Source of the DNA: a virus
Length of the DNA stretch: 63,515 nucleotides
Virus record (IMG/VR): IMGVR_UViG_3300029258_001393
Span: 1 to 63,515 of that record
Strand: one strand, 5' to 3'
Under the pieces are notes generated by a model. That model searched no databases. It was not told where the DNA came from and was given only the letters and a program-made list of their open reading frames with translations. Below, piece after piece: positions 51,380 to 57,300 of the stretch (positions within the stretch are counted from its first letter, which is position 1; each line of letters starts with the position of its first letter). The position numbers were made by a program, and so were the translations under genes.

Positions 51380-54300
51380 ATGGGAATTGAAGCTGGAAAA
51401 ATAGATTTTGACGCTTGGGACAAAGAGATAGCTGAACAAAAGCCACAGAAATCAACTGGGATGGACTTCGATTCGTGGGATAAAGAGATATCGGCGGGCG
51501 AAGAGGTAGAACAACGAGGCTTGCCCGGTGACATTGTTTCCGGGATCGTTCGCGGTGTTGCCGTTGAAATGCCGAGTTTGTTTCTGGATACGGTGGGGGC
51601 CACCGAAAGAATAGCCAGAAAAGCCCTTGGTTATGAAAAGGAACAAGAGGTTGGGCCTATTGGAGAAATGGCCAGGGCTGGGAAAGAAGGCCTTGAACAA
51701 TTCAGGTCCGAACATTCTATTTTAAGAGCCAAAGAAAAACCCGGTATTATCTCCCAGGGCGTTGAGGCGGCGGCCATGTCCATAAGTTCCGGCGCTCCGG
51801 GTGCCGTAGCCGGTTTTGGAATCGGTTCATTGTTTGGCCCGGCGTCCCCGGTTACCGCACCCATGGGCGCATTGATCGGTTTTGCCATGTCCGGGGGTCT
51901 TACGTTTGGTCTTGCCGAGTACGAAAATGTCATACAGCTTGCCGATGAGCAGGGCATTGACCGGGCGGAAAGCGAACCGGCGGCTATTTGGTCGGGATTG
52001 GCTGAAGGTGGTTTTGAATTCGCTTCCGACCTGATAACCGGTGGATTGCTAAAGGTTGCCAAACCATTGACCGCCCCGGCAAAAGAAGGATTAAAGTCGG
52101 GAATTCGCCAAGTGTTTAAAATGGGAGTCAAGGAAGCCCTTGCAAGATCTGGTGCGGTTCTTGCCTCTGAAACTTCAATGGAAATGCTGACCGCCGGTGT
52201 CCAGGCAGAGCAATATAAAAAGATCGGTCTCGGAGACGCTACCTTTTGGGAGGGAGCGAAACAGGCCATGGGTCCGGCGTTTGTCGCGTCTGTAATCTTT
52301 GCCGGGATCGGAACCGGTGCCACACGTTTACACCAGGTTTCAATCAGAAGAAAGATCGAGAATGGTGCTATAGATCCAAAGAAACGTATGCAGGCGGCTA
52401 ATGAAGTTGGTGAAATCCTCGGCCAGGTTGACAAGGACCTTGCTAAAGTGTGGCGGATTAACGCTACTGAGGCCATAAAGAATAAAGAAAATATCGATAT
52501 TGACGATCCTGACCTGATACGGGCAACCGCTGTTAATCGTGCCGACCAGGAACCCGGCGGAGCAACACCGGAAAACATTGAGGTTAAAGAACAGGAAATC
52601 AAGCAGGAGATTCACACCGAGAAACAGGACGATATCAGAAACCATATATCCCTTGCCGTTGCCATAGGGGAAATAAACGATGTTCAGGCGCATGAGTTAG
52701 GCAGAAGCGTAGGTCTTGGCCTTGACGAAGTGAACCAGGCGCTTATTCGCGGTACTGGCGTACAGCAAATGTTCAACGATGCGGACCCCATTGAACTCAG
52801 ACCCTTTGCCGTTCATAACGATATTGCCATTCCCGATTCCATAACCGACGGCAATCAAATGGCGGCTATCATTCAGGAAGGCTTGAAAGAGGAAGGGTCG
52901 GTTGTCTCTGAACTGGCCAAACAGGTAAAAAACCTTGAACAGACCGCAAAAACACGGGGCATGGAACATGCGGCGGAAACTCTTGCGAAGAAGAAAGCGG
53001 CATTGGATAAGATGTTGCCGGAACCGGATGAGGTTTACGGGGAAGCTCCGCCGATAGAGAAGGGATTTGAAAAGGAGGCCGAAGGTGATCGTGAAGAAGG
53101 GAAACAATTGGTGGGTGAAGTCGGAAAAGGGGAAGAACCTGGGGGGGCCATACCAAAGCCGGAAACAGGCGGTGAAGAGGTTGAAACAGGTGGAGTACTT
53201 CAAACACCGGAAGAAATAACTCCTGAGACGCCCGTAGTCGAGCTGGAGACTGAACCCGTACCAGAAGTCGCAAAACCTGAGAAAGTCGAAGGAACGGCGG
53301 CTGATGAATCGGTGGAGGCTGAAAAGCCAATTTCTGTAAGATTAAACAATGGCGAGGTCGTCACTCGGTCTGCCCGTACAAAGGGTAAGTTTCAAACAAC
53401 AAGATTTACAGAAGAGGGGGAACCTGCTGGACACGAAGAGCATAACACCCTTTCTGAAGCAATTAAAGATAATTACAAAGAGCTTGACAATCCTGTTTCA
53501 AGGCTTGCAAAAAATACTCCAAACGCAGTTGAGTCATGGGAAGAAGCGACATTTGAACATCCACATAAAGACGAATTGCAAAAGGCTCCATATGCCTATG
53601 TTTCACCGTTAAGACCGCTTACAGGCGTTGGTGTCAAAGGAAAAGTATCTGCTGATAAGTCTGGAAGGGTTGGTGTTTTATACAGAGACACGCCACTTCC
53701 TGTTGAAAAAATGGAATCGTTATCATTAATTCCTGTTACACCAAAAGCTGTGGAATCGTTTGCCGTAGATATGGCTAACAAATATGAAGGGATAAAACCC
53801 AAAGCCACCAAGCCCGAACTTTCAGCAGAAGACAAAGCCATGCGAGACATGCTCAAGCCGGGAACGGGTGAATTTCTTAGGAAGAACGGGTTGATTGGGC
53901 CTGAGAAGACCGTACACGATTACAGCAATACGCAAGTTAATCTTCCTGAAGAATCTGCAAAACCCATTAAGGATCTTGCTCAAAAAATACCCGAAGAAGA
54001 ACTTTATACCGAACCAGATAATAATGATTACGGTCGTGAGGATGCACCACACATTACCGTTCGTTATGGACTCGAAACAACAAATCCTAAAGATATTGAA
54101 CCCGCATTTAAAGACTTGGGGCCGGTAAAAGTAAAGTTCGGCAAGGTCTCTATTTTTGAAACCGACAATTACGACGTCGTTAAGGTCGATATTGAAAGCC
54201 CTGATTTAGAGAAGGCCAATAAGAAAGTTGGCGAAACGGTAGATCTTCCGGGCGAAACCTTTAAAGATTACAAACCCCATGCCACTATTGCCTATGTAAA

Positions 54301-57300
54301 AAAAGGTGAGGGTAAAAAATATATAGGCGATAAGTCTCTTGAAGGCCAAGAAACGGTTATTGATAGTATCTTCCTATCTTCTAAAGATGGAAAGATGCAC
54401 GAAATCAAACTGACCCCGGAATCCACCGAACCCACCAACCCCCCATGGGAAATGAACATCGATGAGTTTGAAAAGTTTGCCGAGGGCGGTAAAATCCACA
54501 AGGCGACCGGGAAAGAGTTGCCCGGAGAGGATAAAGCGAAAACTCCTCTGGCCTTGGGTGAGATAAATAAATATTCGCCACAGGACATTGCCAAGTTCTA
54601 TCAGGAAACCCATGGGAAGGATGCCCACAGGGAATTGCTCCGTGACGCAAAGGCAGAGGGTAAGGCCGTACCTGAAGAGTTGTTGGGTAAGTATGCTGAG
54701 GCGGAGGCTGAAAAGCCCGTTATTGCTGAAGAGGGCGAGGGTAAGGCGAAAGAGCCTTGGGAGATGACAAGGAGCGAATATGGAAAAGAAAGACTTCCAG
54801 AGGTTCTAAGATCCGTCAAAAAAACTTCTCCAATAACAAAGACATCTGCTTTGCAAAAGAAAGCAGAAGATATTGTTTCAATGGAGCATGAAGCGTCTAT
54901 TCGTAAAGCCAAATTAGAGGGTAAAATTCCTTCTAAGGATATTGGATGGCAACAGACAAAAGCAGAGATTCAAGAAAAGATTGATAGTGGTATATTACCT
55001 AAAGACTATTTGACAGGTGGTTCTCACGAAAGGTTTGTCAAGCACGCCATTAACGAAGGCAAACCCGTACCCAAAGAAGTTCTTGCCGAGTATCCTGATT
55101 TAAAGCCCCCTCCCTCCCCCGAAGGGACAAAGGTAGCTCCCGAGGGGAAGGAAGAGAAAGAACCCATAGGCACAGCATGGGTAAAGAACGCTCAAAAACC
55201 CATCATAGCCGCAAGGGAAATCAAGAGTGGTAAACACAAGGGCAAGGTTGAAGTTACCCTGACCGCTGGCAGGGATGCACAAGGGAATGTCAAGCCGGGG
55301 AAGAAAGTTAAGGTTGACAGGAAGTCTGTTGTTGAGTGGCCGGGGGAAGCTAAGAAACCCAAAGAAGAAATCAAAATTACCGGCAAGGAAGACAAGACCG
55401 TATCCGTTGAAATGCTTGAGTCAAAGGCTGAAGACCTGACACCGAAAGAGCAGAAGAAATATCTTTTGGCTGAGATTGATAAGGCGATTGATACGGCAGT
55501 TGATAATCATATTAAAGGGAATAATCTTAAAGGAAGTGTTGCACAGATACGAAAACAATTTGAAACAGAAAAGTATATGGGGAGTCTTGGGTCTCAATTC
55601 TACAAATTTGAAGTTCCCGGTGATGGTGAATTTGATATTGCCGCAGATAGTTTGATTGATTTTAAAAAGCGTGTGAAATCTCAATTCCCTGCTGCTGTAA
55701 GAAATGAAAAATTCAGGCCATCTACCGAAGGGCGTATTAATTATGGAGCCGAGATTAACAAATACAAAAAACTCATAGGCAAGCCTGTTGAGAAATTAAA
55801 ACCTTCTGATATTGCAGATATTAACGAAAAGGTTAGAGAGGCAAAAGTATATGATTCTAACCATTTTACCAACTGGCTTTTAAATGAAAAAGTTTCCGAG
55901 GATGTTAAAAAGGAAATATTAAAGCAAGAGGGTATTGAAGCCAAACCCAAGCTGGCAGAAGGCGAGAAAGAACCCCTTTACTCCACAGCCGAACCCAAAA
56001 ACAAAACCACCGAAGACCAGGTATGGGATATCATTCTGCCATACATGCAAAACATGACCCAATTTCCAACGGTCAAGTTTGCTCAATCAGAGGAACAACT
56101 TTCCGGCCGGATACGAAAACAGGTTGTAGCGTTTTCCAAGAAAAGTAACAAGAAAATCGAGGGATTCTATGACAAGCTTACTGATACGGTTTGGTTTATT
56201 GGTAACAATCTATCAAAAGGCCGCGTATTGCCCGTTTTTAAGCATGAAGGCGAAGGCCATAGGGGAATAAGGCTTTTATTGGGACCGGAGCTGGACGGCT
56301 TTCTGGACGGCATTTCCAAGGCTAAAAAGGATGAACTTCTAAAGCATGATCCCAAGTTAAACTTCAAAGATCAAAACGCGGTCCGGGTGGCCGCAGACGA
56401 ATGGTGCGCCCGAAAGATCGAGGCCGGAAACCTTGGCAAGTCGTTTTGGGATGATTTGGTTCGGATATTTAGAAAATGGTTGAGAAAGTTTGTTCCTAAC
56501 TTGAACCTGACTGACGGTGAAATACGGTCGGTTTTGACGGACACGGTTAAGAATGTGAGAGAGGGGCGGATTGACCGGATGGGAGAGGCACAGGGGGTCT
56601 TGTATTCCGGTAAAAAAGGTGATAAAGAACAGGCCATGACCTCTAAAAAGGGGCCGGGCGACATAACCACCACAGAAACCTCTAAAAGCCCGATGGGTGG
56701 AAATCCGTTTAAAGATTCAAAAATTAAAAAGATAGTTTATCATGGGACTGATAAAAGTTTTGATGAATTTAATAAGTCAAAAAGTGACAAGTTTTTTATT
56801 AATGAATTAAATGAACTCTACTATTTTTCACCATCAAAAAAAGTCGCTAAATCTTACGCTGGCGATAAAGGAAATATTTATAAAGTTTATTTAGATGTAA
56901 AGAATCCGATTCCGTTAAAAAAAGCCCTACAGGTTGCGGAGGAATCTGGTGTTGAGTTGTCTGTAACAGGAGACTTTGTTGGTGAGGTTTTTGACGCAAC
57001 AACAAAAAAATGGATAGAGGTTCCATCTTGGGAATATAGCGATATCCTTTCCGAATATGCAGTTGAAAATGGTTATGATGGATTTCGTGTATATGATAGC
57101 GCAAATGATGAAATGGGAGAATATGGATTAGGGATTGTTGTTTTAGATAAATCTCAAATAAAAATCCTCCCTAAACCATCCAGCCCACCGGGGAAAGGTG
57201 GGCAAGAAGACCTACTCTTTTCCACCGCACCCGACGAAGAAATCAAAACCCTTGAACAGGAGATCAAAACCCTCCAAAAGGATTTCAAGGAAAAGGTCAA

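What the first reader, a model, noticed from the sequence alone, without database searches (positions are those of the whole stretch)
53957..54410. 2H (LigT/2',5'-phosphodiesterase-like) domain inside the giant virion protein
Two H-x-T-x motifs occur with the correct spacing and hydrophobic context: APHITVRYGL (His at 54050-54052) and KPHATIAYVK (His at 54278-54280), about 76 residues apart. This is the hallmark of the 2H phosphoesterase superfamily, which includes enzymes that cleave 2',5'-oligoadenylate and cyclic-nucleotide immune signals (viral NS2/VP3-type PDEs, phage Acb1-like enzymes). An injected copy could erase cyclic-oligonucleotide defence signals or repair or ligate RNA at the onset of infection.
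Basis: partly seen in the sequence, partly recalled or inferred. Interest (0 to 1): 0.65.

Follow-up and report, generated by a model that had tools for sequence, protein, structure and literature searches.

The report
Phosphodiesterase module in giant phage protein
A 2955-residue phage protein, probably carried in the virion, really does contain an intact 2H phosphodiesterase domain, but domains of this kind in giant "polyvalent" phage proteins were already described in 2017, so this is a new example of a known theme.

Summary
His891 (54050-54052, HITV) and His967 (54278-54280, HATI) lie 76 residues apart in ORF 51380-60247. They are the catalytic tetrad of a genuine 2H phosphoesterase domain spanning aa 842-1013 (window 53903-54418).

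Evidence for the domain:
- Pfam PF13563 scores 36.4 bits against a cut-off of 27.
- The AlphaFold model has pLDDT 94.4, and its top 35 PDB fold matches are all 2H enzymes.
- The HxT...HxT tetrad is invariant in 177 of 177 relatives checked.

The closest characterised relatives by sequence are phage Acb1-type cyclic-nucleotide phosphodiesterases (BCSR5 PDE-9, PDB 9Q2G). The domain nevertheless fails both the Pfam Acb1 cut-off and the NCBIfam LigT cut-off.

The host protein is a mosaic polyvalent protein. It also carries ART-PolyVal, and its N- and C-terminal scaffold modules are shared with other giant proteins. The gene lies between podophage tail genes (SU10 adaptor and Gp77). In simpler relatives the C-terminal module is fused to a lysozyme, which suggests an ejection protein.

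An exhaustive search finds 6629 cluster representatives of this 2H family. Of the best 150, 111 are embedded in larger proteins, 65 of them over 2000 aa.

Iyer et al. (2017) already described 2H domains in polyvalent proteins and predicted that they degrade nucleotide signals. Substrate and virion delivery remain untested. Verdict: new member of a known kind, modest interest.

The parts
51380..60247 (+). Giant polyvalent protein gene (2955 aa), a mosaic of scaffold and effector modules
   Evidence: Single uninterrupted ORF. The same protein is on record in a JGI metagenome as P0088. BLAST against giant homologues shows block-wise mosaic similarity.
51380..53299 (+). N-terminal scaffold module (aa 1-640) with Gly/Ala-rich hydrophobic segments at aa 130-178 and 292-317
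   Evidence: 43-58% identity to the N-termini of other 2660-4476-aa proteins: P0089-P0092, P0094, P0095 and P0097. Hydropathy scan. No Pfam hit.
53903..54418 (+). 2H phosphoesterase domain (aa 842-1013), the subject of the finding
   Evidence: PF13563 at 36.4 bits against a cut-off of 27. AF2 pLDDT 94.4. Top 35 Foldseek PDB hits are all 2H enzymes. BFVD best hit is a piece of another giant phage protein at TM 0.83. BLAST boundaries run from aa 842-845 to 1011-1013.
54050..54061 (+). First catalytic motif H891-I-T893-V
   Evidence: Read from the sequence. His and Thr are invariant in 177 of 177 relatives. Aligns with H50 of PDE-9 (Doherty 2025).
54278..54289 (+). Second catalytic motif H967-A-T969-I, within the signature Y964-K-P-H-A-T-I-A-Y972
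   Evidence: Read from the sequence. H, T, Y964, A971 and Y972 are invariant or nearly so. The P-[ED]-Y-x-[PA]-H-x-T-x-[AS]-Y signature is shared with PDE-9 and FBB1 Acb1.
54419..55159 (+). Helical repeat linker region (aa 1014-1260): two PWEM motifs and three 'H..h..A..EGK.VP.E.L' motifs
   Evidence: Regex and reading of the sequence. Weak similarity to P0089 and P0090. Function unknown.
55958..56659 (+). Conserved block upstream of the ART domain (aa 1527-1760), containing HEGEGH at aa 1622
   Evidence: 71% identity to P0089 and 50% to P0090. No Pfam hit. Function unknown.
56729..57163 (+). ART-PolyVal ADP-ribosyltransferase domain (aa 1784-1928)
   Evidence: PF18760 at E 7.4e-15, 56.4 bits against a cut-off of 31.2.
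57215..60244 (+). C-terminal all-alpha scaffold module (aa 1946-2955), the presumed ejection or internal-virion-protein core, with a hydrophobic helix at aa 2712-2730
   Evidence: 81% identity to P0089. 33 homologues of 637-1750 aa carry variable N-terminal domains, including Phage_lysozyme in P0264 and P0266. P0266 sits in the same syntenic position. phrog_28077 at E 4e-45. AF2 pLDDT 79, but no PDB fold match.
38290..38952 (+). SU10-type head-tail adaptor gene, the upstream boundary of the tail and virion module that holds the giant gene
   Evidence: PF24175 at E 6.6e-16. The same order (adaptor, several genes, giant gene) occurs in loci L001, L002 and L009.
60852..61172 (+). Gp77-like fibre-tail adaptor gene just downstream of the giant gene
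   Evidence: PF23148 at E 4e-8, 34.1 bits against a cut-off of 27. The same gene follows the P0089 giant gene in L001.

Best explanation
Residues 842-1013 of the giant protein form a catalytically intact 2H phosphoesterase domain. This part is shown.

The domain is one interchangeable effector module of a polyvalent protein. That protein's conserved N- and C-terminal modules belong to a podophage ejection or internal-virion protein. The whole polypeptide is therefore most likely packed into the capsid and delivered into the cell with the DNA. This part is inferred from gene order and from homologues fused to lysozyme.

Once in the cytoplasm, the HxT/HxT tetrad would carry out metal-independent transesterification and hydrolysis of a ribonucleotide phosphodiester, through a 2',3'-cyclic phosphate intermediate, as phage Acb1 and PDE-9 do. 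The most likely substrates are host cyclic oligonucleotide immune signals from CBASS or type III CRISPR. They would be destroyed from the first moment of infection, before any phage gene is expressed. The substrate is inferred and untested.
For: Fold and active site:
- PF13563 scores above its gathering cut-off.
- The AF2 model has pLDDT 94.4, and its top 35 PDB fold hits are all 2H enzymes.
- The tetrad is invariant in 177 of 177 relatives, together with G897, F926, V933, Y964, A971 and Y972.

Nearest characterised relatives are signal-degrading phage enzymes:
- The family profile's best solved-structure match is BCSR5 PDE-9 (9Q2G) at E 8.6e-7. Archaeal LigT scores 3e-4 and FBB1 Acb1 scores 0.027.
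- 48 of 61 family members hit Pfam Acb1 at E<1e-3.
- The signature P-E/D-Y-x-P/A-H-x-T-x-A/S-Y is shared, and aromatic residues F926 and F961 align with Acb1 base-stacking positions W74 and F107 (Hobbs 2022, PMC9117128).
- PDE-9 and Acb1 cleave 3'3'-cGAMP (Doherty 2025).

Associations that point to defence evasion:
- A 46%-identical stand-alone homologue is fused to the Thoeris inhibitor Tad3 (PF25185, E 1e-31), and another is fused to GGDEF.
- Giant carriers of this 2H family also hold ART-PolyVal, DarA_C, a methylase plus Sno-type helicase, InPase, SLT and LPD domains.

No RNA-repair partner:
- No RNA ligase was found among the window's ORFs of 280 aa or more.
- Iyer 2017 noted that polyvalent-type 2H domains never associate with RNA ligases.

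Virion context:
- The gene lies between the SU10 adaptor and Gp77 tail genes, and the synteny is conserved in L001, L002 and L009.
- Homologues of the C-terminal module carry an N-terminal lysozyme.
Against: - No activity, substrate or virion proteomics data exist for this protein or for any close relative.
- The domain scores below the Pfam Acb1 gathering cut-off (24.6 against 27).
- It lacks an obvious equivalent of the Acb1 C-terminal lid residues W147 and E141.
- Fold similarity does not separate Acb1 (TM 0.46-0.49 by query length) from Usb1, LigT or plant CPDase (TM 0.61-0.69).
- Doherty 2025 found two structural groups of viral 2H enzymes with no activity on 18 messengers.
- The tested relative PDE-11 (Colly_1 gp180, 33% identity) has its result only in a figure that I could not read.
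- Ejection proteins are usually present in only a few copies per virion (my own knowledge), which may be too few to clear a signal.
- The C-terminal module has no fold match to any solved ejection protein.
Confidence: 0.5

Rival explanations
1. RNA-end healing enzyme. The injected 2H domain acts as a 2',3'-cyclic phosphodiesterase on tRNA or mRNA ends cut by host metal-independent defence nucleases (anticodon nucleases, toxin RNases). This prepares the ends for a host or phage ligase.
For: The best Pfam and PHROG hits carry the generic 'RNA ligase/LigT' names, PF13563 and phrog_755. TIGR02258 (RNA 2',3'-cyclic phosphodiesterase) is the only NCBIfam hit of note. Fold matches to LigT, drCPDase and Arabidopsis CPDase are as good as or better than those to Acb1. 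The relative in Maribacter phage Colly_1 lies about 4 kb from a HAD domain annotated as belonging to RNA-repair proteins.
Against: TIGR02258 scores 22.2 bits against a 65.7 cut-off, so the domain is not a LigT/ThpR orthologue. No RNA ligase, kinase-phosphatase or RtcB was found in the window. Iyer 2017 reports that this kind of 2H never associates with RNA ligases. By sequence profile the family is closer to PDE-9/Acb1 than to LigT.
Confidence: 0.2
2. Offensive RNase. The domain works like Usb1/Mpn1, trimming or cleaving host RNAs and leaving cyclic-phosphate ends, as part of host takeover.
For: The top three Foldseek PDB hits are human Usb1 (E 6-7e-6, TM 0.61-0.65). Iyer 2017 proposed this as one of two options, by analogy with PBECR RNase fusions to MuF and portal domains.
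Against: The margin over LigT and PDE-9 in Foldseek is negligible, and identity to Usb1 is 12-14%. No Usb1-type sequence family matched. The fusions to Tad3 and GGDEF point to small-molecule signalling or immune evasion rather than RNA decay.
Confidence: 0.1
3. Partner of the ART domain. The 2H domain processes an NAD-derived product, for example ADP-ribose 1'',2''-cyclic phosphate as yeast and plant CPDases do. That product would be generated by, or related to, the ADP-ribosyltransferase in the same polypeptide.
For: ART-PolyVal lies in the same protein. The highest TM-score in PDB is to Arabidopsis CPDase 1jh6 (0.69), an enzyme known to hydrolyse Appr>p (my own knowledge). PMC9503650 links 2H enzymes, KptA-type ARTs and ADPr>P in RNA repair.
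Against: The two domains are not coupled. Of 82 giant carriers of this 2H family among the top 150 representatives, only 2 have this ART. P0090-P0093 have the ART without 2H. ART-PolyVal is not placed in the KptA clade by Iyer 2017.
Confidence: 0.07
4. The two HxT motifs are a chance occurrence, or a decayed, catalytically dead structural spacer.
For: None beyond the general frequency of short motifs. A third strict motif (HISL, aa 422) occurs elsewhere in the protein.
Against: The Pfam match is above its cut-off, the 2H model is confident and the tetrad is invariant across 177 relatives. The shuffle test gives 0.6%.
Confidence: 0.01

Closest known systems
2H phosphoesterase domains of phage polyvalent proteins (Iyer, Burroughs, Anand, de Souza & Aravind 2017, J Bacteriol, PMC5512222)
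   Same: A 2H domain embedded in a very large multi-effector phage protein that is encoded among virion genes and co-occurs with ART-PolyVal. Related carriers hold LPD, DarA_C, methylase-helicase, InPase and SLT domains. There is no RNA ligase partner. The predicted role is degradation of nucleotide signals or RNase activity.
   Different: Nothing essential. This is a previously uncatalogued protein from an uncultured temperate podophage-like genome, and its N- and C-terminal scaffold modules have no Pfam family.
Phage anti-CBASS nuclease Acb1 (T4 gp57B, FBB1; PDB 7T26/7T27; Hobbs et al. 2022) and Burkholderia phage BCSR5 2H PDE-9 (PDB 9Q2G/9Q2Y; Doherty et al. 2025)
   Same: Same fold and the same HxT/HxT tetrad. 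These are the best solved-structure sequence matches to the family profile. The pre-His2 signature P-E/D-Y-x-P/A-H-x-T-x-A/S-Y, the SPDL helix motif, and aromatic residues at the positions of W74 and F107 are shared.
   Different: Acb1 and PDE-9 are stand-alone proteins of about 150-165 aa expressed after infection, each with a terminal lid. Here the domain is about 172 aa, lies inside a 2955-aa protein, has both ends tethered, scores below the Pfam Acb1 cut-off (24.6 against 27) and has only 20-22% identity.
LigT/ThpR RNA 2',3'-cyclic phosphodiesterase (TIGR02258; E. coli LigT 5LDI, T. thermophilus TT0787 1IUH)
   Same: Same superfamily, similar size (about 180 aa), TM about 0.55-0.64.
   Different: 22.2 bits against the 65.7-bit equivalog cut-off. 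Cellular housekeeping context versus a phage effector. Identity is 12-18%.
Eukaryotic-virus 2',5'-phosphodiesterases (rotavirus VP3 C-terminal domain, coronavirus ns2, AKAP7-like)
   Same: A 2H domain used by a virus against a nucleotide second messenger. In VP3 it is also embedded in a larger multi-enzyme virion protein (my own knowledge).
   Different: The fold match is weaker (TM 0.41-0.45, E 2e-3 to 2e-2). The AKAP7_NLS Pfam hit is only E 0.16.
Podophage ejection or internal virion proteins carrying enzymatic domains (T7 gp16 with its transglycosylase, N4 virion RNA polymerase, P1 DarB)
   Same: A very large protein encoded in the tail and late module. Homologues of its C-terminal module carry an N-terminal lysozyme, as T7 gp16 carries a transglycosylase. 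Enzymatic cargo is delivered with the DNA (inferred).
   Different: There is no detectable sequence or fold similarity to any solved ejection protein. Packaging is not demonstrated.

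Membership tests
2H phosphoesterase superfamily | Two H-x-T/S-x motifs with hydrophobic x, about 70-90 residues apart | tested here: met
   HITV at aa 891-894 and HATI at aa 967-970, 76 residues apart.
2H phosphoesterase superfamily | Significant match to a curated 2H family model | tested here: met
   PF13563 at E 6.8e-9, 36.4 bits against a 27-bit cut-off. phrog_755 at E 4.6e-8.
2H phosphoesterase superfamily | Bilobed alpha+beta 2H fold | tested here: met
   AF2 pLDDT 94.4, pTM 0.88. 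The top 35 Foldseek PDB hits are all 2H enzymes at probability 0.97-1.00.
2H phosphoesterase superfamily | Catalytic tetrad conserved among homologues | tested here: met
   H891, T893, H967 and T969 are invariant in 61 of 61 and 177 of 177 sequences.
2H phosphoesterase superfamily | Metal-independent phosphoesterase activity | not testable with these tools
   Needs an enzyme assay of the purified domain and His-to-Ala mutants.
Acb1 anti-CBASS nuclease family (Pfam PF23474) | Score above the Pfam gathering cut-off | tested here: not met
   24.6 bits against 27 for the excised domain, and 16.6 bits for the whole protein. Some family members do pass, for example P0018 at 30.7 bits.
Acb1 anti-CBASS nuclease family (Pfam PF23474) | Nucleobase-stacking aromatics (Y12, W74, F107, W147) and adenine contact E141, with a terminal lid | tested here: inconclusive
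   In alignment A3, F926 aligns with the W74 position and F961 with the F107 position. No equivalents of Y12, E141 or W147 and the C-terminal lid could be aligned (residues from PMC9117128).
Acb1 anti-CBASS nuclease family (Pfam PF23474) | Cleavage of 3'3'-cGAMP and related CBASS signals | not testable with these tools
   Biochemical assay needed.
LigT/ThpR RNA 2',3'-cyclic phosphodiesterase (NCBIfam TIGR02258 equivalog) | Score above the equivalog cut-off | tested here: not met
   22.2 bits against 65.7.
LigT/ThpR RNA 2',3'-cyclic phosphodiesterase (NCBIfam TIGR02258 equivalog) | Association with RNA ligase or RNA repair genes (phage RNA-repair type) | tested here: not met
   No RNA ligase, PNK or RtcB hit in any window ORF of 280 aa or more scanned with Pfam or PHROGs. 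Smaller ORFs were not scanned.
Polyvalent proteins (Iyer et al. 2017) | Several unrelated effector domains in one very large polypeptide | tested here: met
   2H (aa 842-1013) and ART-PolyVal (aa 1784-1928) in a 2955-aa protein.
Polyvalent proteins (Iyer et al. 2017) | Encoded with virion or packaging genes of a portal-terminase phage | tested here: met
   TerL, portal and MCP lie upstream. The SU10 adaptor and Gp77 tail genes flank the gene.
Polyvalent proteins (Iyer et al. 2017) | Mosaic shuffling of domains among homologues, with LPD-type accessory domains | tested here: met
   Block-wise similarity to 13 giant proteins with different effector sets. 2H carriers hold LPD1, 5, 23 and 38, DarA_C, InPase, SLT, RadC and methylase-helicase domains. 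No LPD Pfam domain was detected in this protein itself.
Polyvalent proteins (Iyer et al. 2017) | Packaged in the capsid and injected with the DNA | not testable with these tools
   Needs virion proteomics and infection-time localisation.
Podophage ejection or internal virion protein | Syntenic position in the tail module, with relatives carrying a peptidoglycan hydrolase | tested here: met
   The same position after the SU10 adaptor in L001, L002 and L009. P0264 and P0266 combine an N-terminal Phage_lysozyme with the same C-terminal module at 52-53% identity.
Podophage ejection or internal virion protein | Structural similarity to a solved ejection protein | tested here: not met
   The AF2 model of aa 1946-2955 (pLDDT 79) has no PDB match better than E 0.57.

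The most novel reading that the evidence does not exclude
This 2H family would be a large pool of pre-made phosphodiesterases carried inside virions, so far uncharacterised by experiment. It has at least 3385 50%-identity clusters at E<=1e-30, and in the sampled top hits most copies are embedded in giant phage proteins. Injected with the genome, the enzymes would erase cyclic-oligonucleotide immune signals before any phage transcription. Alternatively they would act on a messenger outside the 18 tested so far. Either way this would be a 'time-zero' counter-defence that differs in timing and delivery from Acb1, which is expressed after infection.
Probability: 0.35. Interest if true: 0.6.

Novelty: new member of a known kind. 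Interest (0 to 1): 0.3.

Why it matters
If the domain degrades immune second messengers and really is delivered in the virion, it would be an anti-signalling enzyme that is present before the host can raise its alarm. That changes the kinetics of the race between phage and CBASS or type III CRISPR. It is also relevant to decoy systems such as Panoptes, which sense loss of a nucleotide.

The survey here adds something practical. This particular 2H family is very abundant, and within the sampled top hits it sits mostly inside giant polyvalent proteins rather than in stand-alone genes. Published screens of viral 2H phosphodiesterases were dominated by stand-alone proteins, so they have probably under-sampled it.

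The concept itself was predicted in 2017, so the value is as a well-defined test case rather than a discovery.

Tried and rejected
1. tblastn of the whole giant protein against 50,697 GenBank phage records. Only the 2H domain found anything (8 records). The rest of the protein has no cultured relative. The C-terminal module alone gave one weak hit, to an archaeal virus.

2. AlphaFold plus Foldseek of the C-terminal module, to tie it to a solved ejection protein. The model is acceptable (pLDDT 79), but there was no PDB match (best E 0.57).

3. Host identification by scanning GTDB genomes with the C-terminal module. This gave only three MAG contigs (Deltaproteobacteria at 72% identity, Spirochaetales, and a probably mis-binned 'Halobacteria'). 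The host remains uncertain. TerL is below 28% identical to any cultured phage.

4. The substrate profile of the tested relative PDE-11 (Maribacter phage Colly_1 gp180). Its identity was found in Supplementary Table 1, but the result is only in figures that are not held as text.

5. Using fold similarity to assign a subfamily. TM-scores to Usb1, LigT, CPDase, PDE-9 and Acb1 are too close to discriminate.

6. An obligate functional link between the 2H and ART domains. Rejected, because only 2 of 82 giant 2H carriers have this ART.

7. A literature search for experimental work on 2H domains in polyvalent or virion proteins. None was found.

8. The first word-indexed homologue search suggested that the domain was always stand-alone. 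The exhaustive HMMER search showed this was an artefact of that tool's prefilter.

Full report
**The observation.** The window carries a single 2955-codon ORF at 51380-60247 on the + strand. Only three strict H-h-[ST]-h motifs occur in the whole protein. A pair of them spaced 50-110 residues apart appears in 0.6% of composition-preserving shuffles.

**Is it a 2H domain?** Yes.
- The excised segment matches Pfam PF13563 (2_5_RNA_ligase2) at E 6.8e-9 and 36.4 bits, above the 27-bit gathering cut-off. Weaker hits go to Acb1 (24.6 bits, below its 27 cut-off), LigT_PEase and AKAP7.
- It matches PHROG 755.
- An AlphaFold2 model built on a 61-sequence alignment has mean pLDDT 94.4 and pTM 0.88.
- Foldseek against PDB returns 35 consecutive 2H phosphoesterases before the first unrelated protein. 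These include Usb1, T. thermophilus and E. coli LigT, Deinococcus and Arabidopsis CPDases, phage BCSR5 PDE-9, phage FBB1 Acb1, rotavirus VP3 and MHV ns2.
- H891, T893, H967 and T969 are invariant in the 61-sequence alignment. They are also invariant in 86 of 86 relatives embedded in proteins over 1000 aa and in 91 of 91 stand-alone relatives, along with G897, F926, V933, Y964, A971 and Y972.

BLAST end-points with many relatives and the model's secondary structure place the domain at aa 842-1013, window 53903-54418.

**Which kind of 2H enzyme?** Fold scores do not discriminate. TM is 0.6-0.69 to Usb1, LigT and CPDase, 0.58-0.60 to PDE-9 and 0.46-0.49 to the smaller Acb1.

Sequence profiles do discriminate.
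- The family profile's best match among all PDB sequences is BCSR5 PDE-9 (9Q2G, deposited as 'Anti-CBASS protein Acb1') at E 8.6e-7. Archaeal LigT-like proteins score 3e-4 and FBB1 Acb1 scores 0.027.
- 48 of 61 family members hit Pfam Acb1 at E<1e-3.
- An alignment with PDE-9 and KVP40 gp57B shows a shared signature P-E/D-Y-x-P/A-H-x-T-x-A/S-Y and a shared SPDL helix motif. F926 and F961 fall at the positions of the Acb1 base-stacking residues W74 and F107. There are no alignable equivalents of Y12, E141 or the W147 lid (residues from Hobbs 2022).
- NCBIfam's LigT/ThpR equivalog scores 22.2 bits against a cut-off of 65.7.

The domain therefore belongs to a distinct phage 2H family. Among characterised enzymes it is nearest to the Acb1/PDE-9 group, but it is a formal member of neither Acb1 nor LigT.

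**The protein around it.** Pfam also finds ART-PolyVal at aa 1784-1928 (E 7e-15). Homologues of the full protein are all giants of 2660-4621 aa that share different blocks:
- The N-terminal 640 residues are shared with eight of them.
- The 2H block is shared with four others (P0096, P0098, P0099, P0100).
- aa 1527-1928 is shared with P0090.
- The last 1010 residues are shared at 81% identity with P0089. P0089 lacks both 2H and ART and instead carries an SNF2 helicase.

This is effector-cassette shuffling on conserved scaffolds. Fifteen of the nearest 2H-bearing relatives, fourteen of them 2334-4379 aa, carry LPD1, LPD5, LPD23, LPD38, ART-PolyVal, InPase, SLT, RadC, DarA_C, Eco57I-type methylase and Sno-type helicase domains. 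That is the repertoire Iyer et al. 2017 defined for polyvalent proteins.

The 2H module is not tied to any one scaffold. Of 82 giant carriers among the top 150 representatives, 2 share this ART, 1 shares this C-terminal module (P0161, which also has 56% identity over 939 aa) and 4 share this N-terminal module.

**How common is it?** The first, word-indexed search returned only stand-alone proteins of 148-307 aa, which was misleading. An exhaustive HMMER search of 1.84 billion cluster representatives found 6629 hits at E<=1e-3 and 3385 at E<=1e-30. Of the best 150, 39 are 350 aa or shorter, 29 are 351-1000 aa, 17 are 1001-2000 aa and 65 are over 2000 aa. The 20 nearest relatives of this domain (56-83% identity) all sit inside proteins of 948-5484 aa. 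The best stand-alone relatives reach 51-63%.

**Is it a virion or injected protein?** This is inferred, not shown.
- The window is a phage genome with TerL, portal and major capsid genes. It also has an integrase, so the phage is temperate.
- The giant gene lies between an SU10-type adaptor (38290-38952) and a Gp77 fibre-tail adaptor (60852-61172).
- The same order is seen around P0089, P0096 and P0266.
- The C-terminal module occurs in 33 proteins of 637-1750 aa with variable N-terminal parts. Two of these (P0264, P0266) have an N-terminal phage lysozyme (aa 26-159) followed by the module at 52-53% identity. That architecture recalls T7 gp16 (my own knowledge).
- Tunturiibacter phage Tunturi_5 gp321 (1362 aa) holds the same 2H family between a head-tail connector gene and a minor tail gene.
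- Against this, the AlphaFold model of the C-terminal module (pLDDT 79, all-alpha) matches nothing in PDB, and no proteomic data are available.

**Function.** Several points favour degradation of nucleotide immune signals:
- The nearest characterised relatives are Acb1 and PDE-9.
- A 46%-identical stand-alone homologue is fused to the Thoeris inhibitor Tad3 (PF25185, E 1.3e-31) on a contig that also carries a T4 gp13-like neck gene. Another homologue is fused to GGDEF. Tad3 is described as a ThsB-binding inhibitor in PMC13402655.
- The co-resident domains in polyvalent proteins are of the anti-defence kind.
- No RNA ligase partner was found among ORFs of 280 aa or more, in line with Iyer 2017.

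Several points argue against certainty:
- The Acb1 score is below its cut-off.
- The Acb1 lid residues are missing.
- Doherty et al. 2025 found two structural groups of viral 2H enzymes inactive on 18 messengers.
- Ejection proteins probably have a low copy number per virion (my own knowledge).

The rivals are RNA-end healing, a Usb1-like RNase and processing of NAD-derived cyclic phosphates. They remain open, with lower weight.

**Novelty.** Iyer et al. 2017 (PMC5512222, section 20) already reported 2H domains in polyvalent proteins and as solo phage genes. They noted the lack of RNA ligase association and proposed either a Usb1-like RNase role or degradation of defence nucleotides. Hobbs 2022 and Doherty 2025 then showed that stand-alone phage 2H enzymes do degrade CBASS and other messengers. 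Doherty 2025 also noted that 13 of 75 viral 2H proteins carry extra domains. I found no experimental work on a virion-borne or polyvalent-embedded 2H domain.

This finding is therefore a correct call and a new member of a known kind. The open and testable question is whether pre-packaged delivery gives protection from the start of infection.

Noticed in passing
window 56729-57163 (aa 1784-1928 of the giant ORF): ART-PolyVal ADP-ribosyltransferase domain (PF18760, E 7e-15) in the same polypeptide, with a YHGT motif at aa 1787-1790. Among other carriers of this 2H family it co-occurs only rarely (2 of 82).
   Followed up: partly
window 57215-60244 (aa 1946-2955): Conserved all-alpha C-terminal module of about 1000 aa (AF2 pLDDT 79) with no fold match in PDB. 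It is found in 33 proteins whose N-terminal parts vary (lysozyme, ART, GNAT, DnaJ). It is probably the core of an uncharacterised podophage ejection-protein family (phrog_28077 and phrog_9880, function unknown).
   Followed up: partly
L001 10001-23233 (P0089, 4410 aa) compared with window 51380-60247: The closest relative shares the N-terminus and an 81%-identical C-terminal module. It has replaced the 2H and ART effectors with an SNF2-type helicase block, a recent effector-cassette swap between related phages.
   Followed up: partly
L003 2708-3631 (P0019, 307 aa) and P0026 (307 aa): Stand-alone relatives of this 2H family are fused to the Thoeris inhibitor Tad3 (PF25185, E 1e-31; on a contig that also carries a T4 gp13-like gene) or to a GGDEF cyclase domain. 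The 2H-Tad3 fusion looks like a two-in-one anti-defence protein.
   Followed up: partly
window 51404-51490 and 54443-55140: Short repeats inside the giant protein: a tandem DFDxWDKEI at the N-terminus, and two PWEM motifs plus three 'H..h..A..EGK.VP.E.L' helical motifs just after the 2H domain. Their function is unknown. They could be linkers or processing sites.
   Followed up: no
window 55958-56659 (aa 1527-1760), HEGEGH at 56243: A block conserved with P0089 (71%), P0090 (50%) and P0101, containing an HEGEGH motif. It has no Pfam hit, and it is unclear whether it is a degenerate metallopeptidase-like element.
   Followed up: no
window 10176-11348 (-), 11717-12574 (-), 19880-20590 (+): Integrase (phrog_1, E 1e-19), N6/N4 DNA methylase (PF01555, E 1e-33) and an O-like replication initiator. 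The phage is temperate. It has no close cultured relative (TerL below 28% identity).
   Followed up: partly
window 45869-50224 (1451 aa): A large protein just upstream matches phrog_10969 in seven stretches (E 1e-144), so it is internally repetitive. It is probably a tail fibre or nozzle component, with function unknown.
   Followed up: no
L008 1432-5520 (Tunturiibacter phage Tunturi_5 gp321): A cultured 309-kb phage encodes a 1362-aa protein annotated only as 'MutT/NUDIX hydrolase'. It also carries this 2H family (33% identity) and lies between a head-tail connector gene and a minor tail gene. It is a possible experimental handle for testing virion delivery.
   Followed up: no
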